DNA of 64,000 bases, taken from a bacterium (GTDB lineage Bacteria > Armatimonadota > Chthonomonadetes > Chthonomonadales > CAJBBX01). The position numbers were made by a program, and so were the translations under genes. The notes under the pieces are model-generated. The model was not told the DNA's origin. It ran no database searches and saw nothing but the letters and a program-made list of their open reading frames with translations. Below, in pieces: positions 46,732-62,865 of this stretch; the stretch's first letter is position 1; each line of letters begins with the position of its first letter. The stretch covers positions 5,257 to 69,256 of the forward strand of contig JAJZOL010000238.1 of NCBI GenBank assembly GCA_021811565.1, given 5' to 3'.

Positions 46732-48192
46732 ATGTCACTGTACATCAACACCAACACGGATGCGATGGGAACACTTCGCAATTTGCAGAATACCAGCGAT
46801 GCCTTGTCCACGTCCATCCAAAGACTGTCATCGGGTTTGAGAATCAACAGCGCCAAGGATGATCCTGCGGGTTTGATCATCTCGGAAAACTTGAAATCCC
46901 AGATCAACGGGATGAACCAAGCCATCACCAACGCGCAGAACGCCAATAACGTAATCCAAACTGCGGATGGCGGCCTCTCCGAAGTCACCAGTCTGTTGCA
47001 ATCCATCAACCAGCTTGCGGTTGCCGCTGCCAACACTGGGGCAAACGACCCCACCGCAGTGCAAGCGGATCAGACCCAGATATCCTCGGCAATTCAAAGC
47101 ATCGATCGAATTGTCTCAGACACCCAATACGGATCAAAGAAATTGCTTGATGGCACATCCGGGGTGACTTCCGTTGTTACGAATACAACCGATCTTGGCG
47201 GGGTATCCATTGGAGGGACGTTTGCGGGTCAAGCGACTCAAGCGGGAAATGTGTCGGTAAGTGTGACAACCGCCGCGAGTTTTGCCACATCCGCCGGCGC
47301 GGCAACTTATGCATCCACCACTTCGCTTCTATCAACCGTTAATGGTGGAACGACAGGGACAGGAGGCACGATAGTAATTAACGGACAATCCATACAGGTC
47401 TCCTCCAGCGATTCCGTTCAAACCATGCTTGACAAGATCAACAATCTCAGTTCCACCACCGGTGTGAGTGCACAGTTCGTGAGTGGCGCCAGTGGAGGGC
47501 ACATAGAGTTGGACCAGACAAATTACGGATCAAACTTCAACATCAATTATTCGGAAAGCAGCACAATTCTTGGAGCCCAAACTTTTGTCGCCGGTGCGAA
47601 CGCAGTAGCCACAGTCACTGTGGGCGGGGTGTACACTACGTTTACAGGTGGTCAATCGACTGGCTCCTCAGGATTACAGCTAACGGACAGTTCAGGGAAC
47701 AGTATCCTCTTGACGGAGGCCGGGAATACGAAGTTGAACACCGCCGCGGCAGTCGTGGGTACGGTCTCTCAAGGGTCGCTCACCTTCCAGATCGGAGCGA
47801 ACGCGGGACAGAATGTATCCATCTCGATTGGCGATATGTCGACCACTAATCTGGGAAATACCGTGGTGAACGGTCAAACCCTGAATTCGATTGATGTCAC
47901 CACGGCACAAGGGGCTCAAAATGCGATCCAAATTGTCCAGCAGGCTCTCTCTCAGGTGTCTGTGCTTCGGGCTCAGTTGGGATCGTTCCAGGATAACACC
48001 CTGAACAGCACGATTAACGCATTGGGGATCACATCCGAAAACCTTACCGCTTCGCAGGCATCCATTGCAGACGCAAATGTGGCTCAGGAAGTGGTGAACA
48101 TGACTCAGAATAACATACTCCAGCAGGCGGGCATGTCTGTTTTGGCTCAGGCTAACCAGGAACCGCAGATGGTGCTGAAACTTCTGGGATAA
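46732..48192 (+). CDS. fliC: Flagellin 1
   Basis: INTN, RLSSGLRINSAKDDPAGL, QTADGGL, FQIGANAGQ, RAQLGSFQ, SIADANVAQE, LAQANQ.P..VL.LL. Confidence 0.97.
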   Translation: MSLYINTNTDAMGTLRNLQNTSDALSTSIQRLSSGLRINSAKDDPAGLIISENLKSQINGMNQAITNAQNANNVIQTADGGLSEVTSLLQSINQLAVAAANTGANDPTAVQADQTQISSAIQSIDRIVSDTQYGSKKLLDGTSGVTSVVTNTTDLGGVSIGGTFAGQATQAGNVSVSVTTAASFATSAGAATYASTTSLLSTVNGGTTGTGGTIVINGQSIQVSSSDSVQTMLDKINNLSSTTGVSAQFVSGASGGHIELDQTNYGSNFNINYSESSTILGAQTFVAGANAVATVTVGGVYTTFTGGQSTGSSGLQLTDSSGNSILLTEAGNTKLNTAAAVVGTVSQGSLTFQIGANAGQNVSISIGDMSTTNLGNTVVNGQTLNSIDVTTAQGAQNAIQIVQQALSQVSVLRAQLGSFQDNTLNSTINALGITSENLTASQASIADANVAQEVVNMTQNNILQQAGMSVLAQANQEPQMVLKLLG

Positions 48193-48213
48193 ATAGCATA
48201 TCCATTTGATTGC

Positions 48214-48256
48214 AAGGCGCCTGGGATTTTCCTATCCTGGGCGTCTTTTCCTTTTT
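48214..48256 (+). terminator. Intrinsic terminator after flagellin 1
   Basis: AAGGCGCCTGGGAT / ATCCTGGGCGTCTT 14-bp stem (3 G-U pairs) followed by TTCCTTTTT. Confidence 0.8.
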
Positions 48257-48263
48257 AAGACAT

Positions 48264-48292
48264 CTAAAGATACTTATGTGTTATGCCAATAA
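48264..48292 (+). promoter_or_regulatory. sigma28/SigD (FliA) promoter of flagellin 2
   Basis: CTAAAG...: TAAA-N16-GCCAATAA (7/8 match to GCCGATAA), directly after the flagellin 1 terminator. Confidence 0.75.
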
Positions 48293-48348
48293 TCTCTTCG
48301 AGTGTTCCAACAGAAACCGCGGTCTGTGTAACATCTCACAGTAACACA

Positions 48349-48406
48349 CCCATGCAGGATGCAGGGATGATGCGAAATACACGATTTCGCTTTTTTCACG
48401 GAGGAT
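48349..48406 (+). promoter_or_regulatory. CsrA-type sites plus a terminator-like hairpin in the flagellin 2 leader
   Basis: CCC(A)TGC-AGGAT-GCAGGG hairpin containing CAGGATG; GCGAAAT-5nt-ATTTCGC-TTTTTT; SD ACGGAGGAT. Confidence 0.6.
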
Positions 48407-48413
48407 AAATATC

Positions 48414-49877
48414 ATGTCTCTTCTCGACATCAACACCAATGTGACTGCGGAAACCGCGCTCCGCTATTTGCAGCAGAACACGAACAGTCTGTCGACGTCC
48501 ATTCAAAGGCTCTCATCGGGCTTGAGAATCAACAGCGCCTCGGATGATCCGGCGGGATTGATCATATCAACCAATCTCACGGCTCAGATCAACGGGATGA
48601 ACCAGGCGATATCCAATGCGCAGGACGCCAATAACGTGATCCAAACTGCGGATGGAGGGCTTTCCGAAATCACGAATCTGTTACAGTCTATCAACCAATT
48701 GGCTGTAGCCGCCGCCAACACCGGCGCGAACGATTCAGCGTCAGTGCAGGCGGATCAGACTCAGATACAATCCGCGTTGCAGAGCATCAATCGAATCGTT
48801 GCGGATACCCAATACGGTTCAAGAAGGTTGCTTGATGGCAGTTCCGGAGTAAGCGCGGCGGTTACGGATACCACCGACCTGAGTGGGATATCCATCGGCG
48901 GCACGTTTGGATCGGGGACCACTCAGGCGGGAAATGTAACCCTGTCATTGACACAAGCCTCGACAAGGGCGATTGGCGCCGGAACGGCGACCTATGCAAG
49001 CACCAGTTCCTTGGTTTCGGCTGTCAACGGGGGAACCACTGGCACAGGCGGGACGATTGTCATAAACGGTCAATCCATCCAGATAAGCGCAAGCGACACG
49101 GTTCAAAACATGCTGGATAAGATCAACAATCTCACCTCCACGACCGGCGTCAGTGCGCAATTTGTGAGTGGAACAAGCGGTGGAACGATTGAACTAACTC
49201 AGACAAATTATGGATCTCAGTTTTCAATCAACTACGCTGAAAGCAGCACCATGCTCGGTACGGTGACTGTAACCGCAGGGGTGAATGCAGTCGCCACGGT
49301 GCAGATCGGTAGCGCGACAGAAACTTTCACAGGGGGACAGTCTAGTAATGCCAGCGGTTTGCAACTGACGGACGCGAATGGCAACAGCATTCTGTTAACC
49401 GAAGCGGGAAACAAGTTGGCGCTGAATGCCAATACGACTGTTGCAACGGTATCCGTAGGTTCGATGCAGTTTCAGATTGGCGCCAATTCCGGACAGTATG
49501 TGAACATGTCCATTGGTAACATGGCTACTTCGCAATTAGGCAACACGGTGATTGCAGGCAAGAACCTCAGCAACATAGACGTAACCACCGCACAGGGGGC
49601 GTCGGATGCCATCAGCATGGTGCAGCAGGCGCTCTCCCAAGTGTCCGTTATGCGGGCGCAATTGGGGGCTTTTCAGGATAACACCTTGAACAGCACCATC
49701 AACGCATTGGGAATTACGTCGGAGAACCTGTCGGCCTCGAACTCTTCCATCGCCGATACGAATGTGGCGCAGGAAGTGGTGAATATGACGAAATACAACA
49801 TTCTCGAGCAGGCTGGCATGTCTGTTTTGGCGCAAGCAAACCAAGCGCCTCAGCAGGTCTTGAAACTCTTGCAGTAA
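48414..49877 (+). CDS. fliC: Flagellin 2
   Basis: Paralogue of flagellin 1 with the same terminal flagellin motifs and a similar central domain. Confidence 0.97.
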   Translation: MSLLDINTNVTAETALRYLQQNTNSLSTSIQRLSSGLRINSASDDPAGLIISTNLTAQINGMNQAISNAQDANNVIQTADGGLSEITNLLQSINQLAVAAANTGANDSASVQADQTQIQSALQSINRIVADTQYGSRRLLDGSSGVSAAVTDTTDLSGISIGGTFGSGTTQAGNVTLSLTQASTRAIGAGTATYASTSSLVSAVNGGTTGTGGTIVINGQSIQISASDTVQNMLDKINNLTSTTGVSAQFVSGTSGGTIELTQTNYGSQFSINYAESSTMLGTVTVTAGVNAVATVQIGSATETFTGGQSSNASGLQLTDANGNSILLTEAGNKLALNANTTVATVSVGSMQFQIGANSGQYVNMSIGNMATSQLGNTVIAGKNLSNIDVTTAQGASDAISMVQQALSQVSVMRAQLGAFQDNTLNSTINALGITSENLSASNSSIADTNVAQEVVNMTKYNILEQAGMSVLAQANQAPQQVLKLLQ

Positions 49878-49958
49878 AGCGGGAATAGGTCACAGGGGTG
49901 AGCGTAAATACATCTCACCCCATCCTTTCTCCTTTACAAGGAGGGTGGGAGCAACATA

Positions 49959-52304
49959 ATGAGCACAAGCGGGATAACATTTACGGGATTGGGAAGTGGT
50001 ATAGACACCACCAGCATTGTCAATCAATTGATGGCAGTGCAAAGCTTGCCTTTGAAGAACCTGCAGGCGGAACAAACGCAATTGCAGACGGAACAGGCCG
50101 CAGTACAGACGATATCTTCGGCGATGTCCAACTTTGAAACCGCTGCAAACGCTTTGGACGGACAAAGCAGTTTTAACGCTGTACAGGCTTCCAGTTCAAA
50201 CACTTCCGCTGTCTCCGTCACCGCTCAGAATGGGGCGCAGACGGGGAATCATTCGATTCAAGTGCTTCAACTGGCTCAAGCTGAGAGCATGGCGTCGGCG
50301 GCTCAATCCAGCGCATCCACCCCTTTGGGTGTTTCGGGGCAGTTAATCATTGACGGACATGCGGTGAATGTCTCATCCACCGATACCTTGCAATCTCTTG
50401 TGTCGAATATCAATTCAGCGAATGCTGGAGTTAGCGCGTCAATCATTTCAACAACGTCCAATAGTTACACGATGGTATTAACCAGTTCGAATTCCGGTAC
50501 GGTCAATGCGATATCCATATCGGATAATGTTGGTGGAGCGATAGTGCAAAACAAACTCGGGTTGGTAGGCTCCTCCACAACAAACAATACTTCCGGGAAT
50601 GCAGTGGTATCAAACCTTTTTACCGACAGCGCCACCTCTTTGGGAACCCTGATTGGCTTGACCTCTCCGCAATCTGGCACGGTTAGCATTAACGGGACAG
50701 GGGTGAGCATCGATTTATCCACGGATTCCCTCTCCACGATCGCTCAAAAGATAAACTCGGCGGGTATCTCCGGCGTTTCCGCGAATGTTGTCTCCGTGCA
50801 GAATCCAAACGGATCCGGAACCGAACAGCAACTTCAATTGACGGGAATCACATCTCTGACGGATTCCAATAACATCCTGGCTAATCTTGGGATTGTGCAG
50901 AATACTCCCACAAACTTATTGCAGAGCGCCCAGGATGCCAAGTTCACCTTGGATAATCTAAATATCACCAGAAGCAGCAATACGATATCCGACGCTCTCG
51001 CCAATGTCACCATCAATCTCCTTTCGGATAGCGGTCAGCCTACATCCAATGTCTCTATAACGTCCGACACCAGCACAATATCCGGGAATATCTCTAATTT
51101 TGTCACCGCATATAACAATCTCGTCACTGCGGTAAACGGTGTGGCATCCTATAATTCGTCCACGAAAGTTGCTGGTCCGTTATTTGGGAACTCGATAATT
51201 GAGAATATGATGAATTCGGTGTCCAATATCATTGTAGGTCAAGTGAATGGGCTTAGCGGAGCCAATTCCACATTGGCGCAAATCGGGATCACACTTGATC
51301 AGAGCGGCAATTTAAACGTAGATAGCTCAACGCTTAACAACGCATTGCAAAACAATCTCGGAGCCGTCGCGAAAATATTTCAAGCGGTTGGAACAAGCAC
51401 GGATAACACAATCAGTTACGTAAATTCCACCAGCAATACAAAGCCCAGCGGATCGGCGGGGTATCCCGTGAACATCACGCAAGTTGCCACGCAGGCCTCC
51501 GCTACGGCTGGAACCGCTCACACAAGCGATAATAATCCAAATACGGAAACTCTTACATTTTCAGGCAACATGTTCGGGAATGGCTACAATCTATTTCTGG
51601 CTCCAAACAGCACGCTGGATGGAATTATCTCTCAGATCAACGGAGATAAGACCTTATCCAACTACATCACCGCGCAAAATATCAATAATCAGTTGGTTCT
51701 AACCGCCAAACAGTATGGATCCAATTATGATTTCTCCGTGGTTTCCAATGAAGCAGCCGCTTCGAATAACAGCGGAATTGGAACAACGGCTCTGAATGCC
51801 CAGGGATTGAATGTTGCCGGAACGATCAACGGCGAGGCGGCGACCGGAAACGGCCAATTGCTGACAGGCAATTCAGGAAACGCCAACACGGACGGCTTGA
51901 CATTATTAGTGCAATCCACAACCACAGGCTCGCATGGACCAGTAATATTCAGCCAAGGTGTTGCGGATCAAATTAAAAATTTCGCCAACTCCGTTACTGA
52001 TTTCGTGAATGGAACCCTGACGCAATTTTCCAATTCATTGGGTTCCCAAATCAGTGATTTAAGTTCACAAATATCCGATATGCAGACGAACCTGAATGCG
52101 CAACAAGCGTTTTTGGAACAGGAGTTCACAAACATGGACACCGCCGTCGCCAATCTGAACGCTTCCGCAGCGAGTTTGGCAAGTTTGGCGGGGTTGAGTG
52201 GATCCTCCTCATCCTCCTCAAGTTCGGGATCAAGTGGATCGTCAAGCGGGACGAGTTCGTCATCATCCACCAATACGCCTTCTAGTACGTCAACCACGGG
52301 TTAA
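49959..52304 (+). CDS. fliD: Flagellar filament cap protein FliD
   Basis: GLGSGIDTTSIVNQLM, VLQLAQA, AQDAKFTLD, FVTAYN, LAQIGI, C-terminal QEFTNMD; extra Ser-rich tail. Confidence 0.93.
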   Translation: MSTSGITFTGLGSGIDTTSIVNQLMAVQSLPLKNLQAEQTQLQTEQAAVQTISSAMSNFETAANALDGQSSFNAVQASSSNTSAVSVTAQNGAQTGNHSIQVLQLAQAESMASAAQSSASTPLGVSGQLIIDGHAVNVSSTDTLQSLVSNINSANAGVSASIISTTSNSYTMVLTSSNSGTVNAISISDNVGGAIVQNKLGLVGSSTTNNTSGNAVVSNLFTDSATSLGTLIGLTSPQSGTVSINGTGVSIDLSTDSLSTIAQKINSAGISGVSANVVSVQNPNGSGTEQQLQLTGITSLTDSNNILANLGIVQNTPTNLLQSAQDAKFTLDNLNITRSSNTISDALANVTINLLSDSGQPTSNVSITSDTSTISGNISNFVTAYNNLVTAVNGVASYNSSTKVAGPLFGNSIIENMMNSVSNIIVGQVNGLSGANSTLAQIGITLDQSGNLNVDSSTLNNALQNNLGAVAKIFQAVGTSTDNTISYVNSTSNTKPSGSAGYPVNITQVATQASATAGTAHTSDNNPNTETLTFSGNMFGNGYNLFLAPNSTLDGIISQINGDKTLSNYITAQNINNQLVLTAKQYGSNYDFSVVSNEAAASNNSGIGTTALNAQGLNVAGTINGEAATGNGQLLTGNSGNANTDGLTLLVQSTTTGSHGPVIFSQGVADQIKNFANSVTDFVNGTLTQFSNSLGSQISDLSSQISDMQTNLNAQQAFLEQEFTNMDTAVANLNASAASLASLAGLSGSSSSSSSSGSSGSSSGTSSSSSTNTPSSTSTTG

Positions 52305-53115: not shown

Positions 53116-54171
53116 TTACATCGCTCTCTGGATGGAGCATCCGAATGAATGCGTCTCCTTTGTAGTTATCGATTGTCCGCTGATCATCTCCCTAAGCGCA
53201 TTTTCCAAGTAAGATTTTTTGACTTTGGCAGTGTTCATATTATCGTCAATCGCCCCGTGGTACACCGCAATCCCGTGGGAGTTAATCACCCAAACCTCCG
53301 GCGTATGCGTCGCTCCGAAATGATCCGCTAACACATCACCAGTGTCCTTGTAGATTGGGAAGGGGAGGTGGTATTTGTTTTCATAGTTCGAAATGACTTT
53401 TTCCGTTTCATTCACGTTGGAGTCCAACCCCACAAAATGAACTCCCGTAAAAGAGGGTGAGTTGGCAAGTGCATCCAATCTGCCTAAGTACTCTTTGCAC
53501 ACGGGGCAACGCGTACCGAGAAACATGACTACTGCGCCTTTTTGTCCGGGATCGAACAGGCTTGTTTCTTTCCCGTTTGCATCAATTAAGGTGAAATTGG
53601 GGATCAGACCTCCTAATTTCGCTTTCCAATCGGAGAGTCTTAATGCAAGGTCTGCACTATGCCAAGTCATCAATTCTCCGCCGGATTGAGTGTATTCCGC
53701 ATTGACCGCCCAGTCAATGTCCTTTACGACGCCATTCTTGTCAATGATAACCGTTATCCTGTTCGCTCTGCCGTTGGAACCCAAGGCTCCGTATTCCTTC
53801 ACCATATGCTTGCCAGGGTCTGCAAGGATGGGAAAGGGGAGATGCAATTCCTTGGCGAATTGCTTATGAGATGCAACGGTATCCACACTCACCCCAAGAA
53901 TCACCACACCATTCGCGTGTAACTTATTTATGTTGTCTCGGAGGGATTTCATCTCGCATGTGCAACCCGGAGTCATATCCGCAGGATAAAAATTCAACAC
54001 CACAACATGTCCGGAATATTGTTTTAAACTGTGCATCACCCCGTTCTGATCGGGAAGAGTGAAGTCAGGAGCTTTTTGCCCAATCCTTAAGGCCAAAGCC
54101 CATGTCGGAAAAGCGAGCAGAAACACAAACATCATCCATGTGATATTATGCGTGCGTACCATGCGAACCAT
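53116..54171 (-). CDS. Exported two-domain redoxin: BCP-type peroxiredoxin plus a second AhpC/TSA thioredoxin-fold domain
   Basis: Signal peptide; APDFTL...FYPADMTPGCTCE; then PNFTL...CPVC...TPEVWV...Y.GAIDD...GCSI. Confidence 0.85.
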   Translation of the reverse strand: MVRMVRTHNITWMMFVFLLAFPTWALALRIGQKAPDFTLPDQNGVMHSLKQYSGHVVVLNFYPADMTPGCTCEMKSLRDNINKLHANGVVILGVSVDTVASHKQFAKELHLPFPILADPGKHMVKEYGALGSNGRANRITVIIDKNGVVKDIDWAVNAEYTQSGGELMTWHSADLALRLSDWKAKLGGLIPNFTLIDANGKETSLFDPGQKGAVVMFLGTRCPVCKEYLGRLDALANSPSFTGVHFVGLDSNVNETEKVISNYENKYHLPFPIYKDTGDVLADHFGATHTPEVWVINSHGIAVYHGAIDDNMNTAKVKKSYLENALREMISGQSITTKETHSFGCSIQRAM

Positions 54172-54293: not shown

Positions 54294-55118
54294 ATGAATA
54301 TGAATGAGATTGGGGTAATAACCTGGAATGTGGTGGATATGCATAGGGAGCCTAACTCATCCTCGGAAAGGGTGAGCCAGGCGATTTTCGGGGAAACCGT
54401 CTCAATTCTTGATACGATGGATGACTACAAACAAATTGAAACGCCGGATGGTTACCGCGGCTGGACTATCATTCACGCTTTGCGTCCTCTGGATTCCGGA
54501 GAAACATATCCTAATCCGACGTTAGCCGCAATGGTTTCCGACCTTTTTCTTCCCGTTTTTTTCGCCCCATCTCACCGCGCCGAAAGGGTCTCCTTGTTGA
54601 CATTGGGAAGTGTCGTTGAGTTTGCAACAAACGAAACCACTGCGGATTATTATGCTATCAAGATGCCCAGTCTTCAATTCGGTTTTGTCTACGCTCATTC
54701 CTTGATCATCCCCGTATATCCATCGCATGAGGAATTCGGTCATCAAGTTGTGGTGATTGCAAAAGGGATGATCGGCGTGCCCTATCTATGGGGCGGTAGA
54801 AGTACATTTGGCATTGATTGCTCGGGATTCGTCCAAAAGGTCTATTACCTTTGCGGGATCATTTTGCCCAGGGACGCATGGCAACAGGAGATGTGGGAGG
54901 GTTTTGAACCTACGGATATCGAGAACCTGGGACAAGGGGATACCTTGTATTTTTCTTCTGATAAAACCCCTTCCCAAGAGCGAATCACTCATACGGGAAT
55001 ATCTTTGGGCGGGTCTCGTTTCATACACTCATGCGGAAGGGGCGGGGTGATGATCAGCGACCTTGACGAGGATTCTTATATGCAGAGATTGGTATCCGTC
55101 AGACGGTTGAAAAAATGA
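54294..55118 (+). CDS. SH3b + NlpC/P60 gamma-D-glutamyl endopeptidase (YkfC/dipeptidyl-peptidase VI-like)
   Basis: VSQAIFGE, DGYRGW, GVPYLWGG..FGIDCSGFVQ (catalytic Cys), ITHTGI (His), FIHS. Confidence 0.9.
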   Translation: MNMNEIGVITWNVVDMHREPNSSSERVSQAIFGETVSILDTMDDYKQIETPDGYRGWTIIHALRPLDSGETYPNPTLAAMVSDLFLPVFFAPSHRAERVSLLTLGSVVEFATNETTADYYAIKMPSLQFGFVYAHSLIIPVYPSHEEFGHQVVVIAKGMIGVPYLWGGRSTFGIDCSGFVQKVYYLCGIILPRDAWQQEMWEGFEPTDIENLGQGDTLYFSSDKTPSQERITHTGISLGGSRFIHSCGRGGVMISDLDEDSYMQRLVSVRRLKK

Positions 55119-55140
55119 GGCGTCAATGGTTGACGCCTTT
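55118..55140. terminator. Hairpin between convergent genes
   Basis: AGGCGTCAA-TGG-TTGACGCCT perfect 9-bp stem. Confidence 0.7.
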
Positions 55141-55143
55141 ATC

Positions 55144-55866
55144 CTAAGATTCTATTCGCTTTTTTTTCAAACTCCACCCGAAGGTGGTTAGCCCGATCAT
55201 GCAGGCTCCCATAAGGGCGAAAACACTCGGCTCCGGCACCGGGGGGCCGATCATGTTTTGTGCATGGTTTGTGGCGTTATTATACGTACCGCCCACCAAC
55301 CAAGTGGCGTCCGCTGTTTGGTAATTGCTGTTCGCCCATTGTGTCAGGTAAAAGTTAGCATCCGATGCGATCTGATCCGTTTTCAGGTATTGGAAATTCC
55401 CGGAGCTAAGATTTGTGCTTTCTCCGTCTGCAAGAACTTTCCAAATGGCTATTTGCAACCCTGCGGATTGATCGTATTTAGGATTGGCCGACGGTTGTAC
55501 AGAACCCATTAAATTGTTTACATACTGATCGTATAACCATGCCATCCCGCCGCCATTGGCGAGTCCGCTGATCGGTTGCATGGTCACGCAATAGGATGTG
55601 GGAACCGTGATATCGTCATTCAAATCCACGCAATACGTGTCAAAGGATGACGGATATCCTTTCGGCAATGCACTCGTCGGTGTTAGGGTTGCGGATAATG
55701 CCCCCGCATACACGTTATTGTAGGTATGGTTGTTGTAAACTAAACTTACTATGGACGTGTTTGATCCATACTTCAAATTCAACCCCATATTTAATGTGCA
55801 CGCCCAACTTGGGACGGAATATGCTGCAAGGCATGCAAACAGCAAAATGCTATTCAGTTTCTTCAT
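55144..55866 (-). CDS. PEP-CTERM (exosortase-target) surface protein with thioester-domain-like motifs
   Basis: Signal peptide; YC79VDL, LQIAIW (137-142), AQ203NMI; C-terminal VPEP, TM helix, KKKR. Confidence 0.88.
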   Translation of the reverse strand: MKKLNSILLFACLAAYSVPSWACTLNMGLNLKYGSNTSIVSLVYNNHTYNNVYAGALSATLTPTSALPKGYPSSFDTYCVDLNDDITVPTSYCVTMQPISGLANGGGMAWLYDQYVNNLMGSVQPSANPKYDQSAGLQIAIWKVLADGESTNLSSGNFQYLKTDQIASDANFYLTQWANSNYQTADATWLVGGTYNNATNHAQNMIGPPVPEPSVFALMGACMIGLTTFGWSLKKKRIES

Positions 55867-55921
55867 TATTATTCGCTCCTTCTTCGTGGTAACGGGTTCT
55901 GTGTTGCAGGATATCCTGCTA

Positions 55922-59139: not shown

Positions 59140-62100
59140 TTATTCTCTTTTCCTTACATTCACTTTTTTCAGTTGATAGCGAAGGATGAGTATTTTTCTG
59201 GACGTTCTTAAATCCCGCCGATCAAGAGATACGAGTCCGTAATGTCCCTCGCCTGTAGCGATGAGTTCTCCGTTTATGAAGAGTTTACCTTCGCTTTCCG
59301 CACCGATAATGTTATTTTTGGCATCAGTCGTTACGAACGCCGTGCCGTATTGACCGAGTTGGAACTTGACCTTCACGCTAGGCAAGGATACGGTAATCAC
59401 ATTATTCGCATTGTCCGTTCGTACAACCGAGTATAGGGTTCCGCCGTTTGTCAATGGAATGCTCATAACGCGAATCGCCGCGTCGGAGTATTGGACGGGT
59501 ATGGGATTCACTTTGGCGTACTTGAGAAATTCGGCGTAAACCGCTTTGGTGTCGGTGGAATCGCTCAGTTCGATCGGATAGGGGACATAGAACACCTTCC
59601 CCTTGCCAAGCTTCGCCTTAAGTATCCGCCCGTCCCATGGATGCTTGATCGCTTCAAAAGGCGTTATAGGGGACGTGGAGTATGGAACGCCAAGCTCCGC
59701 GCGACGCTCCAGCAACGTTGGTCGGCGCAGATCATCGAATGCCACGTCACCGGACACATATAGCGTTCCTCCGTTTCTCACCCAGTTCACCACCTTTTGA
59801 AAGCATGCGTCCGTGGGGCAGTAGGGAAGAACCCATAATAGCGTCTTGGTTTCCGAAGGCAATTGGCTGATGCAATCCTCGTCAATCACCCCGAAATTCA
59901 CATTGTTATCCATGAGACTTCCCACGCTCCGCAGCAAGGCGTTGTCAATATCATCGAAATGCGCCCCCAATCGGTTCTCATCCGGTAGCAATAGCATCGT
60001 TTTCAAGGGGGCCGGAGCGGGATGGAAGTACTGGAGAAAATCGCCTAATTCCGAGAAGGTTTTAGCCCATGGTTTGGGGAGTCCATCCTCACGCTGGAAT
60101 AACCCCCATGGGAACACCATCTCGTCGAAATCCTTTAAATCCCAGTTAAGCGTAAACGCACCCCCCAGACCTGCGCAATAGTGCACAACATCTTCAAATC
60201 GGCGGATGTTTGCATCTGTGTTGGGATTCGTATCGCCTCTGTCACGCGCATCATGCGCCTCCTGCGCACCAAACTCCCCGAGACTGAACCCCTTGCCTTC
60301 GAAGCGGCGGTCGATCAGTTTCATCTCCAATGGATAATTTACGGGGTCTCCATAATAGTGGGTAGTCTCAAAATCCAAGTGCTTGGAACCGATGATTTTA
60401 TCCGCAGAACTCATCCACTGGAGGAATCCCACGGTGCACCCTGCGTTGGGATCGCCCGCCTTGACGCCTTGCACGTTTGCTTTGATCCAGCGGTTGATCA
60501 GGAAAGCGCGGAATTGCCATAAGTCCGCTGTGTGCATATCCTCCCAATTATCCGTCATGTTTCCGAGAGACACATTCGGCATATCCGCTTCCGGCGGGTT
60601 CAAACTCCACGCCTTCCGTAGATATGAATCATCTCCGTATTTGTTTTTGAGCCATTGATTCCACAATGCACGTATAGCCGGACTGTCAGCCACTTCCAGA
60701 TTGGGTTCATTTTGGATGTCAAAGAATATTCCGGGCACGTTCTTGTATCTCGCCGCCCAGAACTTATCCCAGTTCCTTTGGTCCTGCAATTCCTGATCGG
60801 TAAGATCCATTCGTTGCCAATCATGCAATGTGAGGAGGATTGCGATGTTATGTGCATGTGCCAATTGAACGATCGCGTCAAGCTTTCGGCGAAGGAATTT
60901 TGGTCGGTTGGCGAGCTGCGAAGGAGTGTTAGCCGATTGTCCTTGTTCTCCGTTAGCGGCGAAAGGCGAAAAATGAAGAATCCGCAAGATGTGCATATGG
61001 TATCTTTCCATGCGGGTGAAATCGCGTTCCCACGTTTGCGGGTTCTCGTGCGGAGAATAGAACATCATTCCCGTTTGGTTAGAGCCAATAAGAAATTGCG
61101 GCTTGCCATTGACATGAAAGTAATTGTTTTTCCAGGCAATTCGATCTCCATTGGAAAACTCCTTTGGGTTCCACACGCAAAACGCTCCGGTTTCATAATC
61201 GACGCGTCTTTTATTCGCTCCCAACAGTTCAGCGGAGAAGTAACGAAGAATTGCACCCTGCTTCACTTTCATTGACACACTGAAGGAACGCTCGGTATTC
61301 GGAGGGACAGACACATTCATTTCCTTAAGGTATCGCCCATCGTAACGGATAATCATTTTTCCTTCGAATTCTCTTTTTCCGTAATTGGCTACATGGGATG
61401 TGATGGTTGCGGTTTCTCCTGGCTTGTAACTGGCGAAGTCGCTCTCTATCTGATACAGGAAAACATTACGCACCAAAGTATCCAGCACGGCGGTTAGAAC
61501 TTGTCTTTTAGCCGATGAATTCAATAAGATGTCCTTGCTATTGGTAATGCCGCTAAATGCCCAACTGGACCCCTTGTAAACACCATCAAAATTGCGCATC
61601 AGGGATAGAGCGGTTCCGCACAAGCGGTTCTCCTTGTCATACAGGGACAACAACGGAATCCACCTCCGATAGACGGGCGGGAACACTGCGTTGTTATCGC
61701 CGATTAAGCCGCATGCCGAGAAACCTTCCATCGGCTCCCTACCGATAACATCCCCTGAGGTCGTTTTGATGGCTCCGGAAAGAGCAGCATCCAATTTCAG
61801 CTTGAGAATTCCTCTCCGTAGAATCCGATCCAGGGGATCGAAAAGCCCGATCTGTTCAGGGGTGAATGTCATTGCATCTCCGGGCAAGCCGTATCGCGTG
61901 TTCATGAGGGATGTGGCGGGCAAGTTGGAATCCATCTCCGACGCGGTCACCCCGGCGTTTTCAGACCAACCCGTGCCATTCCAATAGATTAGTTTGTCAA
62001 ATGCGTAACCGTCCGCGGTGAGAAGGCAGCCTGTATGCTTAAGATAGGAAATAAATGCATTCCGCGCTCCAGCCGGAAAATAGGGACCATAGGGGAGGAT

Positions 62101-62865
62101 GACAACATCGAAATGCGCTTTCGTGAGTATGTTCGGGTCCGCCAAATCTCCTGCCGATAGGAGAGTGACTCCAAAGCCCTCATTACGAAGAGTTTTTGCG
62201 AGTTTGTTCGGGGGGGTTGAGGTCTGAAAACCATCCGGTAAATCGGAGAGATTCAGTATGCCAATGTTGCCGCGCTCGCCGGATTCGATTTTCAATCCGG
62301 GTGTGACGGATGGAAGTGTTGCTCTCGTACCACCTGTTTCCCATTCCATTGAACTCATCGTGAACTCCATATCTCCGTAATTGCAACCAATTAGGATCAT
62401 ATTAACCGAGGGCATATCTTTCATGCCGGTTCCGCGATTTTGAAATTGAAAGCCATTCATAGGCATGATTACTTCATGCCAGCCCGACGAAAGCGACCCC
62501 ATGCCTAGTCCACCCACGGTGACGCGTTGCAGCCATCCGTCCCCGCTCGGTTGGAATAACCAGATATGCAGTTGAGCTGTGGGAGTGGAGGAGTATTTAT
62601 ATAGGCGAAATCTCAACGCGACGGCATTGGCGGGCGCTGTGCAATCGCATTGAATATTTCCCCAATGTGGCGGGGCATCTCTGTAGATAACCCGCAAGCC
62701 ATGATGTTCCGTATCCTTGAACCATTGGCATGACACTCCTCCGTCAGGATGCACTTTCCAAAGGGATGGAGTGTTCAAAACAGGCAACGGCACGATACGA
62801 TCGTACGCGTTCGCTGAGAGACTCAATGATAAGAGTATGAAAAGCGGCAATAGATTTCGAAGCAT
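59140..62865 (-). CDS. Large exported multidomain clan GH-A glycoside hydrolase (GH5/GH42-like)
   Basis: Signal peptide, CBM-like N-terminal domain, GATase-like domain, Ig-like domain, TIM barrel with DIQNEP (acid/base) and LGEFG (nucleophile), and a GH42-trimerisation-like C-terminal region. Confidence 0.7.
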   Translation of the reverse strand: MLRNLLPLFILLSLSLSANAYDRIVPLPVLNTPSLWKVHPDGGVSCQWFKDTEHHGLRVIYRDAPPHWGNIQCDCTAPANAVALRFRLYKYSSTPTAQLHIWLFQPSGDGWLQRVTVGGLGMGSLSSGWHEVIMPMNGFQFQNRGTGMKDMPSVNMILIGCNYGDMEFTMSSMEWETGGTRATLPSVTPGLKIESGERGNIGILNLSDLPDGFQTSTPPNKLAKTLRNEGFGVTLLSAGDLADPNILTKAHFDVVILPYGPYFPAGARNAFISYLKHTGCLLTADGYAFDKLIYWNGTGWSENAGVTASEMDSNLPATSLMNTRYGLPGDAMTFTPEQIGLFDPLDRILRRGILKLKLDAALSGAIKTTSGDVIGREPMEGFSACGLIGDNNAVFPPVYRRWIPLLSLYDKENRLCGTALSLMRNFDGVYKGSSWAFSGITNSKDILLNSSAKRQVLTAVLDTLVRNVFLYQIESDFASYKPGETATITSHVANYGKREFEGKMIIRYDGRYLKEMNVSVPPNTERSFSVSMKVKQGAILRYFSAELLGANKRRVDYETGAFCVWNPKEFSNGDRIAWKNNYFHVNGKPQFLIGSNQTGMMFYSPHENPQTWERDFTRMERYHMHILRILHFSPFAANGEQGQSANTPSQLANRPKFLRRKLDAIVQLAHAHNIAILLTLHDWQRMDLTDQELQDQRNWDKFWAARYKNVPGIFFDIQNEPNLEVADSPAIRALWNQWLKNKYGDDSYLRKAWSLNPPEADMPNVSLGNMTDNWEDMHTADLWQFRAFLINRWIKANVQGVKAGDPNAGCTVGFLQWMSSADKIIGSKHLDFETTHYYGDPVNYPLEMKLIDRRFEGKGFSLGEFGAQEAHDARDRGDTNPNTDANIRRFEDVVHYCAGLGGAFTLNWDLKDFDEMVFPWGLFQREDGLPKPWAKTFSELGDFLQYFHPAPAPLKTMLLLPDENRLGAHFDDIDNALLRSVGSLMDNNVNFGVIDEDCISQLPSETKTLLWVLPYCPTDACFQKVVNWVRNGGTLYVSGDVAFDDLRRPTLLERRAELGVPYSTSPITPFEAIKHPWDGRILKAKLGKGKVFYVPYPIELSDSTDTKAVYAEFLKYAKVNPIPVQYSDAAIRVMSIPLTNGGTLYSVVRTDNANNVITVSLPSVKVKFQLGQYGTAFVTTDAKNNIIGAESEGKLFINGELIATGEGHYGLVSLDRRDLRTSRKILILRYQLKKVNVRKRE

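What the first reader, a model, noticed from the sequence alone, without database searches (positions are those of the whole stretch)
55144..55866. Minimal PEP-CTERM protein with the motif set of a Cys-Gln thioester domain (candidate covalent 'harpoon' adhesin in a diderm)
Seen: after the signal peptide, the ~185-aa mature domain has YC79VDL, a helical LQIAIW (137-142) and a late AQ203NMI directly before the VPEP-TM-KKKR tail. Cys23 and Cys93 could pair with each other and leave Cys79 free. Established: thioester domains (TEDs) of Gram-positive adhesins (SfbI/Cpa type) use a [YF]C cysteine, a TQxA[IV]W helix and a C-terminal Qxhh glutamine (h = hydrophobic) to form a reactive thioester that bonds covalently to targets. 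They are usually sortase-anchored on long stalks. Inference: this is a stalkless TED handled by exosortase rather than sortase, i.e. a covalent adhesin or matrix cross-linker in a non-pathogenic diderm.
Basis: partly seen in the sequence, partly recalled or inferred. Interest (0 to 1): 0.85.

Follow-up and report, generated by a model that had tools for sequence, protein, structure and literature searches.

The report
Thioester-adhesin-like domain on an exosortase cargo protein
This small exported protein of an outer-membrane-bearing soil-type bacterium (Armatimonadota) has the key residues and the likely fold of the covalent "thioester" adhesin domains described so far only in Gram-positive bacteria. 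Here the domain is joined directly to a PEP-CTERM/exosortase sorting tail, and the protein belongs to a very large family that is annotated only by that tail.

Summary
The ORF 55144-55866 (-) encodes a 240-aa protein: signal peptide, a 186-aa domain with YC79VDL, LQ138IAIW142 and AQ203NMI, then VPEP, a TM helix and KKKR.

- An exhaustive profile search finds 1,499 clusters of relatives, nearly all 200-260 aa.
- In 123 aligned relatives the only invariant columns are C79, Q138, W142 and Q203 (198-199 of 199 in a second alignment).
- 112 of 123 have that Cys as the only Cys of the mature domain, so a conserved disulfide is excluded.
- Pfam TED matches 91 of 123 members. P0001 itself is sub-threshold at 14.8 bits; member P0155 passes.
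- For the full-length AlphaFold model, the seven best PDB matches are all thioester domains, but TM is at most 0.51. A second, trimmed model kept only one weak TED hit.
- Coevolution couples T77 with M205, which puts C79 opposite Q203 on antiparallel strands.
- The genome has BamA, LpxC and two exosortases.
- A 28%-identical paralogue heads an exosortase-EpsI-sugar operon, an arrangement that recurs in three families of the phylum.

The bond itself, the target and the surface location are untested. The proposed C23-C93 pairing is clade-specific and unverified. I rate it a new variant of a known kind.

The parts
55144..55866 (-). Complete CDS (240 aa plus stop) of the TED-like PEP-CTERM protein, P0001
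   Evidence: The gene is single copy at this locus. The public gene call P0002 starts at Met27 and so lacks the signal peptide.
55876..55881 (-). Shine-Dalgarno site AAGGAG, 9 nt upstream of the ATG at 55866
   Evidence: Read directly (reverse complement of ctcctt). It supports Met1 as the start rather than Met27.
55801..55866 (-). Sec signal peptide, residues 1-22 (MKKLNSILLFACLAAYSVPSWA); cleavage is predicted after A22
   Evidence: A22 is at least 90% conserved across the family. The AF2 model has helix 3-16. There is no lipobox (S-W-A-C).
55243..55800 (-). Thioester-domain-like (TED-like) domain, residues 23-208
   Evidence: Pfam TED hit at residues 77-160. 91 of 123 relatives hit TED. AF2 pLDDT is 89. 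TED structures are the best Foldseek matches.
55630..55632 (-). Cys79 codon (in Y-C-V-D-L), the predicted thioester cysteine
   Evidence: Invariant in 123 of 123 and in 198 of 199. It is the only Cys of the mature domain in 112 of 123 relatives. It lies at the end of strand 74-79.
55441..55458 (-). L137-Q138-I-A-I-W142, the counterpart of the TED central-helix motif TQxx(Phi)W
   Evidence: Q138 and W142 are invariant; L137 and A140 are at least 90% conserved. The motif lies in helix 130-147.
55258..55260 (-). Gln203 codon (in A-Q-N-M-I), the predicted thioester glutamine
   Evidence: Invariant in 123 of 123 and 199 of 199. Coevolution T77-M205 ranks 15 of 11,428 and Y78-N204 ranks 153, which puts C79 opposite Q203 in an antiparallel register.
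55147..55242 (-). PEP-CTERM sorting signal: P209, V-P-E-P (210-213), TM helix 214-233, K-K-K-R 234-237, I-E-S
   Evidence: Pfam PF07589 scores 21.9 bits, over the cut-off. P211, E212 and P213 are each kept in 121 of 123. AF2 helix 215-239.
55118..55138 (-). Intrinsic-terminator-like hairpin (9 bp, 5 GC) plus T-run, 5 nt after the stop; shared with the convergent NlpC/P60 gene

Best explanation
P0001 is a stalkless, divergent class-I-like thioester domain (TED) carried on exosortase cargo.

Proposed path, with each step marked:
1. The protein is exported by Sec and its signal peptide is cut after A22 (inferred).
2. It is held in the inner membrane by its C-terminal helix.
3. Its 186-aa domain folds into a beta / three-helix / beta TED-like fold (predicted). 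In this fold Cys79, at the end of strand 74-79, lies opposite Gln203 on the neighbouring antiparallel strand.
4. The Cys thiol attacks the Gln side-chain amide, ammonia is lost, and an internal Cys-Gln thioester forms. Q138 and W142 of the central helix pack against it. This step is inferred by analogy with Cpa, SfbI and the TIE proteins.
5. One of the genome's two exosortases recognises VPEP-TM-KKKR and removes the anchor. The domain is released onto the cell surface or into the exopolysaccharide matrix (inferred; exosortase chemistry itself is not established).
6. There a nucleophile, either an amine or possibly a hydroxyl, of a protein or an amino sugar opens the thioester. The ligand becomes covalently bound to Gln203, only about 7 residues from the PEP processing site. 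The protein therefore acts as a covalent adhesin or matrix cross-linker.

What is shown: the residues and their conservation, the relationship to Pfam TED, the predicted topology, the presence of the exosortase machinery, and the recurrent linkage of family members to exosortase/EPS operons. What is not shown: the bond, its reactivity, the location and the target.
For: - Conservation: C79, Q138, W142 and Q203 are the only invariant columns among 123 relatives. They are kept in 198-199 of 199 in a second alignment.
- Unpaired cysteine: 112 of 123 relatives have exactly one Cys in the mature domain, so it is an unpaired, exported, invariant Cys.
- Spacing: Cys to Gln is 124 residues here and 104-139 in the family, against 129 in CpTIE and 153 in PnTIE.
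- Pfam TED: P0001 scores 14.8 bits over residues 77-160. 91 of 123 relatives match at E<=0.1, the best at 6.8e-6. P0155 scores 27 bits against a cut-off of 22, over profile positions 1-101 of 102.
- AF2: pLDDT 88.7 and pTM 0.83. Cys sits in a strand, QxxxW in the middle helix, and Gln sits just before the last strand (205-207), matching the described TED topology.
- Foldseek: the top 7 PDB matches are all TEDs (FNE 5dcq at 2.9e-5, Cpa 4c0z, SfbI 5a0l, PnTIE 5a0n). The next match is noise at E 0.7.
- Coevolution: mean-field DCA ranks A59-M205 10th, T77-M205 15th and A59-T77 32nd of 11,428 pairs. The register i+j=282 puts C79 opposite Q203.
- Exosortase: the PEP-CTERM model is passed. The genome holds two exosortases. 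All 37 family-positive genomes among 151 of the phylum have an exosortase, and 0 of the 42 exosortase-negative genomes have the family (Fisher p = 7e-7, not corrected for phylogeny).
- Linkage: a paralogue and relatives in three families of the phylum sit directly upstream of exosortase-EpsI(-EPS export) genes on the same strand.
- Envelope: BamA and LpxC are present, so the host is a diderm.
Against: - P0001 itself is below the Pfam TED cut-off (14.8 against 22 bits).
- Neither P0001 alone, the family profile, nor P0155 finds any TED chain among PDB sequences.
- No TQXA_dom (TIGR03934) hit for P0001 at E<=10, and none among the 25 most frequent NCBIfam families of the 123 members.
- Structural similarity is marginal: TM is 0.37-0.51 and rmsd 6-10 A.
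- The second, trimmed model (pLDDT 89.0) kept only one TED hit, at E 0.08 and probability 0.47.
- The motif reads LQ rather than the usual TQ.
DCA with Meff 180 is noisy and is not independent of AlphaFold's own signal.
- The window's gene is not linked to any exosortase or EPS gene.
- Its orthologue in a genome of the same genus is a pseudogene, so the gene is dispensable.
- Nothing is known about the target.
Confidence: 0.6

Rival explanations
1. The domain has a TED-derived fold, but its Cys-Gln bond is only an internal staple, or never forms. In that case the protein would bind matrix or surface components non-covalently and would be an ordinary structural PEP-CTERM matrix protein.
For: In Cpa the thioester is not needed for folding or thermal stability, and neither Q nor W of TQxAIW is needed for bond formation (PMC4450167). 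Conserved residues therefore do not prove reactivity. The Gln lies within about 7 residues of the anchor signal, an unusual place for a ligand-capturing residue. The orthologue has decayed in a sister genome.
Against: Absolute conservation of one unpaired Cys and one Gln across about 200 sequences at 25-40% identity is hard to explain without chemistry between them. All twelve TEDs tested by Walden et al. formed the bond. Known internal staples of surface proteins are isopeptide or ester bonds, not thioesters.
Confidence: 0.17
2. The invariant Cys is the nucleophile of a small secreted enzyme, for example a transglutaminase-, amidase- or peptidase-like activity acting on matrix or cell wall. 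Alternatively it is a redox or metal site. Either way it would not be a thioester partner.
For: There is an invariant Cys with a nearly invariant Asp two residues later (D81, 111 of 123) and a frequent His at position 84 (65 of 123). A neighbouring gene encodes an NlpC/P60 Cys peptidase, although it is convergent and unrelated in sequence.
Against: No invariant His or Asp could complete a catalytic triad. P0001 itself has Asp, not His, at position 84. No enzyme family is hit in Pfam or NCBIfam. The only structural neighbours are TEDs. An invariant Gln and Trp make no sense for such enzymes.
Confidence: 0.06
3. The resemblance to TEDs is convergent or spurious. On this reading the family is an unrelated PEP-CTERM family that happens to share three short motifs.
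For: No sequence search reaches a solved TED. TM-scores are at or below 0.51, and the second model lost most TED matches. P0001 is below the Pfam cut-off.
Against: With 24,736 Pfam models, TED is the only non-tail family hit repeatedly (91 of 123 members), and one member passes the curated cut-off over the full model length. Three motifs occur in the right order, spacing and secondary-structure context. TEDs head both Foldseek lists.
Confidence: 0.07

Closest known systems
Class I thioester domains (TEDs) of Gram-positive surface adhesins: S. pyogenes Cpa and SfbI/FbaB, S. pneumoniae PnTIE, C. perfringens CpTIE, S. equi FNE (Pfam PF08341; PDB 4c0z, 5a0l, 5a0n, 5dcq)
   Same: - Cys sits in a [YF]C(hydrophobic)(acidic) strand motif.
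- A central helix carries Q-x-x-(hydrophobic)-W.
- Gln sits in a (x)Q(polar)(hydrophobic)(hydrophobic) motif at the end of the domain.
- The Cys-Gln spacing is similar (124 against 129-153).
- The topology is beta / three helices / beta.
- These are the best Foldseek matches and the only recurrent Pfam domain match.
   Different: - The host is a diderm (Armatimonadota), and relatives occur in Proteobacteria, Acidobacteriota, Verrucomicrobiota and Chloroflexota.
- The anchor is PEP-CTERM/exosortase rather than LPXTG/sortase.
- There is no stalk of isopeptide or ester domains and no fibronectin-binding repeats.
- The domain is compact (about 186 aa), and the Gln lies only about 7 residues before the sorting motif.
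- The motif is LQxAIW rather than TQxAIW.
- Sequence identity to solved TEDs is 8-16% and TM is at most 0.51.
- The bond is not demonstrated.
PEP-CTERM/exosortase cargo proteins (TIGR02595/PF07589), e.g. the flocculation protein PepA of Zoogloea/Aquincola (NF033554)
   Same: - A signal peptide plus a C-terminal VPEP-TM-basic tail.
- Exosortases are present in the genome.
- Family members head exosortase-EpsI-EPS operons.
   Different: The mature domain is not PepA-like. PepA and NF038129 model matches are far below their cut-offs. They are confined to the signal-peptide end or the last 55-90 residues. No described PEP-CTERM family carries a TED.
Thioester-containing proteins of the alpha-2-macroglobulin/complement type (including bacterial A2M of Gram-negatives)
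   Same: Both have an internal Cys-Gln thioester that is opened by a nucleophile to give covalent capture. This type is the only thioester protein class so far described in Gram-negative bacteria.
   Different: The fold and motif are unrelated: a CGEQ motif in a helical TED of very large (more than 1,500 aa) proteins. No A2M family was hit.

Membership tests
Thioester domain (TED, Pfam PF08341; class I of Walden et al. 2015) | Thioester Cys in a [YFL]-C-(hydrophobic)-(hydrophilic) motif on a beta strand | tested here: met
   The motif is Y78-C79-V80-D81. C79 is invariant. It is the last residue of strand 74-79 in both AF2 models. The motif definition comes from PMC4450167.
Thioester domain (TED, Pfam PF08341; class I of Walden et al. 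2015) | [quoted passage not shown] | tested here: met
   The motif is A202-Q203-N204-M205-I206. Q203 is invariant in 123 of 123 and 199 of 199. It lies just before strand 205-207.
Thioester domain (TED, Pfam PF08341; class I of Walden et al. 2015) | [quoted passage not shown] | tested here: met
   The motif is L137-Q138-I-A-I-W142-K-V-L in helix 130-147. Q and W are invariant. T is replaced by L in 122 of 123 members.
Thioester domain (TED, Pfam PF08341; class I of Walden et al. 2015) | Score over the Pfam TED gathering cut-off (22 bits) | tested here: not met
   P0001 scores 14.8 bits, E 0.039. The family as a whole is linked: 91 of 123 members match at E<=0.1, and P0155 scores 27 bits over profile positions 1-101 of 102.
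Thioester domain (TED, Pfam PF08341; class I of Walden et al. 2015) | TED three-dimensional fold (beta-barrel subdomain plus three-helix subdomain, with the thioester at the interface) | tested here: inconclusive
   The order of secondary structure fits. For model 1 the top 7 Foldseek PDB matches are all TEDs, with probability up to 1.00 but TM 0.37-0.51. For model 2 only 5a0n is found, at E 0.08 and TM 0.40.
Thioester domain (TED, Pfam PF08341; class I of Walden et al. 2015) | Cys SG adjacent to Gln CD in the fold | tested here: inconclusive
   Model coordinates are not exposed. The proxy is DCA: T77-M205 ranks 15 and Y78-N204 ranks 153 of 11,428, and the antiparallel register i+j=282 places C79 opposite Q203. 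Meff is only 180.
Thioester domain (TED, Pfam PF08341; class I of Walden et al. 2015) | An actual autocatalytic Cys-Gln thioester bond (-17 Da) that reacts with amine nucleophiles | not testable with these tools
   This needs intact-mass MS and methylamine labelling of the recombinant domain, with C79A and Q203A controls.
TQXA domain (NCBIfam TIGR03934) | A match to the model | tested here: not met
   No hit for P0001 at E<=10. The model is not among the 25 most frequent NCBIfam families of the 123 members.
PEP-CTERM / exosortase cargo (PF07589, TIGR02595) | A C-terminal PEP motif, TM helix and basic cluster, plus an N-terminal signal peptide | tested here: met
   PF07589 scores 21.9 bits against a cut-off of 20.7. 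TIGR02595 scores 14.4 against 16, just under. VPEP is at 210-213, a helix at 215-239 and KKKR at 234-237.
PEP-CTERM / exosortase cargo (PF07589, TIGR02595) | An exosortase encoded in the same genome | tested here: met
   There are two. C25 is 553 aa and passes 8TM_EpsH at 118.5 bits against 105.55. C225 is 300 aa and is followed by EpsI. In the phylum, 37 of 37 family-positive genomes have an exosortase and 0 of 42 exosortase-negative genomes have the family.
PEP-CTERM / exosortase cargo (PF07589, TIGR02595) | Actual cleavage or transfer by exosortase and surface or matrix location | not testable with these tools
   This needs an exosortase knock-out and fractionation in a culturable carrier of the family.
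Flocculation protein PepA (NCBIfam NF033554) | A full-length match over the cut-off (80 bits) | tested here: not met
   P0001 scores 21.7 bits over residues 153-228 only. In other members the matches are limited to the signal-peptide end or the C-terminal part.

The most novel reading that the evidence does not exclude
The thioester may be the cell's own coupling chemistry for building its matrix, rather than a harpoon for foreign targets. After exosortase processing, Gln203 sits about 7 residues from the PEP site. It would then be attacked by an amine or hydroxyl of the exopolysaccharide made by the co-encoded sugar enzymes. In the paralogue's operon these are a TviC-like epimerase and a TviB/WecC-like dehydrogenase. 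The attacker could also be another cargo protein. The result would be a covalent protein-polysaccharide (or protein-protein) network. That would give the PEP-CTERM/exosortase system, whose acceptor chemistry has never been established, a first defined covalent linkage.
Probability: 0.12. Interest if true: 0.9.

Novelty: new variant of a known kind. Interest (0 to 1): 0.68.

Why it matters
The literature still describes TEDs as a Gram-positive (Firmicutes and Actinobacteria) invention. They are said to be displayed on sortase-anchored stalks and used against host proteins (PMC4450167; PMC13685950 of October 2026). No paper in the searchable library combines "thioester domain" with PEP-CTERM, and none of the nine that hold both "thioester" and "exosortase" links the two in its title or abstract.

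If the bond forms here, three things follow.
- Covalent "chemical harpoon" adhesion would be widespread in environmental diderm bacteria. The family has at least 1,499 clusters at 50% identity and occurs in 37 of 151 Armatimonadota genomes. Named relatives occur in Marinobacter, Pseudooceanicola, Akkermansiaceae, Anaerolineales and Acidobacteriaceae.
- It would give a concrete biochemical function to part of the poorly understood exosortase cargo. That bears on biofilm, floc and matrix assembly.
- It would provide very compact (about 186 aa), single-Cys TED modules for protein-ligation tools.

Public annotation names these proteins only by their sorting tail.

Tried and rejected
1. Direct sequence links to solved TEDs all found nothing. 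I tried phmmer of P0001, hmmsearch of the 123-sequence profile, and phmmer of the Pfam-positive member P0155 against PDB sequences.
2. I looked for a sequence bridge to Gram-positive TIE proteins through the long member P0086 (region 45-215, last word-index search). It found only a Gemmataceae protein.
3. A trimmed-domain AF2 model, made to sharpen the fold match, gave a weaker Foldseek result than the full-length model. Fold support is therefore reported as moderate only.
I used DCA as a proxy. The MI/DCA scores of invariant-invariant pairs, including C79-Q203 itself, are pseudocount artefacts and were discarded.
5. Relationship to floc PepA, NF038129 and other named PEP-CTERM families was rejected. 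Matches are far below their cut-offs and confined to the tail or signal region.
6. C23 as a lipoprotein Cys was rejected because S-W-A-C is not a lipobox and C23 is clade-specific. A conserved disulfide involving C79 was rejected because 112 of 123 members have a single Cys.
7. The search for related loci with the large alignment failed because no stretch was conserved enough. With the small alignment it gave two loci.
9. Local operon context of the window's gene shows no functional link. The neighbours are NlpC/P60, an AhpC-thioredoxin fusion, Mrp/NUBPL and an AP endonuclease.
Full report
**1. What is there**

The minus-strand ORF 55144..55866 is real and encodes a 240-aa protein, P0001. An AAGGAG ribosome-binding site lies 9 nt before the ATG (read). 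A GC-rich hairpin with a T-run follows 5 nt after the stop, at 55138..55118. The gene is therefore a free-standing unit.

It lies convergent to an NlpC/P60-SH3 peptidase gene. An Mrp/NUBPL ATPase gene lies upstream of it on the opposite strand (divergent). Its other neighbours are an AhpC-thioredoxin fusion and an AP endonuclease, and none has an evident functional link. The public gene call for this protein (P0002, 214 aa) starts at Met27 and so misses the signal peptide.

- signal peptide 1-22, ending SWA|C23
- Y78-C79-V-D-L
- L137-Q138-I-A-I-W142
- A202-Q203-N-M-I
- V210-P-E-P, a hydrophobic helix to residue 233, and K234-K-K-R

**2. The motifs are not chance**

Word-index searching found only three close relatives. 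The exhaustive profile search found 1,499 representative clusters at E<=1e-3, of which 222 are at E<=1e-10. Nearly all are 200-260 aa.

In an alignment of 123 of them (25-74% identical to P0001), the only invariant columns are C79, Q138, W142 and Q203. A22, G55, D81, L111, A135, L137, A140, G156 and P-E-P are at least 90% conserved. An independent L-INS-i alignment of 199 sequences keeps C79 in 198, Q138 in 199, W142 in 198 and Q203 in 199.

In 112 of 123 members the motif Cys is the only Cys of the mature domain. It cannot therefore be part of a conserved disulfide. It is an unpaired, invariant cysteine in an exported protein.

P0001 is one of the few members with extra cysteines (C23, C93). 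C93 is already replaced in the close relatives P0004 and P0005. The proposed C23-C93 disulfide is at best a clade-specific addition, and I could not test it.

**3. Relationship to thioester domains**

[quoted passage not shown] Three core helices lie between beta regions (PMC4450167).

The family consensus is F-x-x-[YF]-C-[VI]-D-L, A-[AG]-L-Q-x-A-I-W-[ED] and [GN]-Q-[DSN]-h-[IVL]-G-P. This fits all three motifs, with L in place of T. The Cys-Gln spacing is 124 residues here (family range 104-139), against 129 for CpTIE and 153 for PnTIE.

- *Pfam.* TED matches P0001 only sub-threshold (14.8 bits, E 0.039, residues 77-160 against profile positions 2-75). It is, however, the only non-tail family hit repeatedly. 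91 of 123 members match at E<=0.1, the best at 6.8e-6. Member P0155 passes the gathering cut-off with 27 bits over profile positions 1-101 of 102.
- *NCBIfam.* There is no model for the family and no TQXA_dom hit. All matches go through the sorting tail.
- *PDB sequences.* Sequence and profile searches find nothing.

**4. Structure**

AlphaFold2 with the 123-sequence alignment gave a confident model (pLDDT 88.7, pTM 0.83). Its elements run in this order: strands 22-98 (C79 ends strand 74-79), helices 105-122, 130-147 (carrying Q138 and W142) and 165-179, then strands 188-192 and 205-207 next to Q203.

Foldseek against the PDB returned seven thioester-domain chains, from four PDB entries, as its top seven hits. 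These are FNE 5dcq at 2.9e-5, Cpa N-terminal TED 4c0z, SfbI-TED 5a0l and PnTIE-TED 5a0n. The next hit is noise at E 0.7.

The similarity is not tight, with TM 0.37-0.51 and rmsd 6-10 A. A second model of the mature domain alone (pLDDT 89.0, pTM 0.88) retrieved only 5a0n, at E 0.08 and probability 0.47. I therefore rate the fold evidence as moderate: consistent in direction but dependent on the model.

**5. Are Cys79 and Gln203 neighbours?**

Known hairpin contacts are recovered: L42-V52 ranks 8 and V40-A54 ranks 22.

Among 11,428 long-range pairs, the relevant ranks are:

| Pair | Rank |
|---|---|
| A59-M205 | 10 |
| T77-M205 | 15 |
| A59-T77 | 32 |
| Y78-N204 | 153 |

The constant sum i+j=282 indicates antiparallel pairing of strand 74-79 with strand 203-207. 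In that register C79 faces Q203. This is a proxy, it is noisy, and it is not independent of what AlphaFold uses. The scores of the invariant pairs themselves are artefacts and were ignored.

**6. Sorting machinery and host**

The closest genome-collection relative is a Chthonomonadales MAG of Armatimonadota (79% identity). The window's own genome (4.0 Mb, 92% complete) encodes BamA/Omp85 and LpxC, so it is a diderm with LPS.

It encodes two exosortases. One is a 553-aa exosortase-EpsI fusion on contig C25. The other is a 300-aa exosortase followed by a separate EpsI on contig C225. Eight ORFs match the PEP-CTERM model at E<=0.01.

A second family member is a paralogue, 28% identical to P0001. 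It carries FCADI, ALQIAIWK and NQNMLGP, and a variant tail IAPELPGS...TRRRIR. It is the first gene of a same-strand cluster: paralogue, exosortase, EpsI, TviC-like epimerase, then NDP-sugar dehydrogenase.

The same order recurs elsewhere in the phylum:
- in the same-genus genome
- in a different family, as two tandem TED-like genes followed by exosortase and EpsI
- in a third family, as TED-like gene, Wzz-type kinase, polysaccharide export protein, exosortase, then EpsI

That makes four linked copies among about 53, against 0.27 expected by chance (Poisson p = 1.7e-4 for at least four). Counting the two same-genus genomes as one event gives three independent events (p about 0.003).

Across 151 genomes of the phylum, the family occurs in 37 (23 of 98 genera). 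Exosortase occurs in 109. All 37 family-positive genomes have an exosortase, and none of the 42 exosortase-negative genomes has the family. Fisher p is 7e-7, not corrected for phylogeny.

**7. Mechanism proposed**

The proposed sequence is as follows.
1. Sec export and signal-peptide cleavage after A22.
2. Folding of the TED-like domain.
3. Autocatalytic Cys79-Gln203 thioester formation with loss of NH3.
4. Exosortase recognition of VPEP-TM-KKKR and release to the surface or matrix.
5. Opening of the thioester by a nucleophile, leaving the ligand amide-linked to Gln203.

Because Q203 is about 7 residues from the PEP motif (Q to E212 is 8-16 residues across the family), any load would run through a very short segment. 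This parallels Gram-positive TEDs, where the Gln is near the C-terminal end of the domain.

The residues, conservation, topology, machinery and linkage are shown. The bond, its reactivity, the location and the target are inferred.

**8. Counter-evidence and caveats**

- P0001 is below the Pfam cut-off.
- The structural match is marginal and model-dependent.
- The window's copy is unlinked to any exosortase or EPS genes.
- Its orthologue in the same-genus MAG has three in-frame stops (at residues 16, 173 and 176) and VPEP changed to VPKS. It is therefore a pseudogene in conserved synteny, while the exosortase-linked paralogue there is intact.

**9. Novelty**

Walden et al. found TEDs "exclusively in Gram-positive bacteria". 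A Science Advances paper of October 2026 still describes them as prevalent in Firmicutes and Actinobacteria. No paper in the library holds both "thioester domain" and "PEP-CTERM". Nine hold both "thioester" and "exosortase"; none links the two in its title or abstract, and in the one I opened they are unrelated mentions.

Named members are annotated only as "PEP-CTERM/VPLPA-CTERM sorting domain-containing protein" or as hypothetical. They come from Marinobacter, Pseudooceanicola, Anaerolineales, Akkermansiaceae and others. Only 1 of 61 carries a precomputed TED domain.

Earlier notes of this same scan have flagged the family many times (37 notes in at least 34 genomes). They agree with this reading but are not independent evidence.

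I class the finding as a new variant of a known kind: a known domain in a new anchoring system, a new architecture (stalkless) and new host phyla.

Noticed in passing
G000:C225:180-968 (= L014:180-968) and downstream to 5481: A second TED-like family member lies in the same genome. It is 262 aa, 28% identical to P0001, and carries FCADI / ALQIAIWK / NQNMLGP with a variant tail IAPELPGS...TRRRIR. It heads a same-strand cluster of exosortase (300 aa, below every typed Xrt cut-off), EpsI, a TviC-like epimerase and a TviB/WecC-like NDP-sugar dehydrogenase. It may be a dedicated exosortase/cargo pair. The contig starts 180 nt upstream, so the upstream context is unknown.
   Followed up: yes
L004:4001-4723 (Chthonomonadales MAG DAIDHP010000001.1; = G109:C1:220018-220749): The orthologue of the window's gene in a genome of the same genus has three in-frame stops (residues 16, 173, 176) and VPEP changed to VPKS. 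It sits in conserved synteny with NlpC/P60, Mrp and the AP endonuclease. It is a pseudogene, while the exosortase-linked paralogue in that genome (L020:174-956) is intact.
   Followed up: yes
L021:2155-3767 (G039:C7) and L022:5352-6269 (G135:C2): In other Armatimonadota families, TED-like PEP-CTERM genes lie directly upstream of exosortase-EpsI. One case is a tandem pair. The other is followed by a Wzz-type tyrosine-kinase co-polymerase, a polysaccharide export protein, an exosortase and EpsI.
   Followed up: partly
P0086 (1251 aa, JGI metagenome) and P0206 (1013 aa, Gemmataceae MAG): These are stalked versions in Planctomycetes. A TED-like domain sits at the N-terminus (C94, ALQIAIWE in P0086). 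It is followed by Big_3_5/DUF11 or SdrD-B/SpaA-like Ig repeats, and in P0086 by a C-terminal matrixin (Peptidase_M10) domain. This is the Gram-positive 'TIE' style of architecture in a diderm, without LPXTG.
   Followed up: partly
window 55144-55866 (-): The public protein record for this gene (P0002, 214 aa) starts at Met27. It therefore lacks the signal peptide, which would hide its exported nature from annotation pipelines. The SD site before Met1 supports the longer ORF.
   Followed up: partly
window 46732-52304 (+): Two tandem flagellin genes (486 and 487 aa) are followed by a long FliD cap gene (781 aa).
   Followed up: no
window 53116-54171 (-): A 351-aa exported protein has two tandem redox domains, AhpC/TSA (peroxiredoxin) and then a thioredoxin-like domain. 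It lies about 1 kb from the TED-like gene. No link between them is shown.
   Followed up: no
window 59140-62865 (-): A 1241-aa ORF has only weak GH5 cellulase / GH42-like matches (E about 1e-5) in its middle. The rest is unannotated.
   Followed up: no
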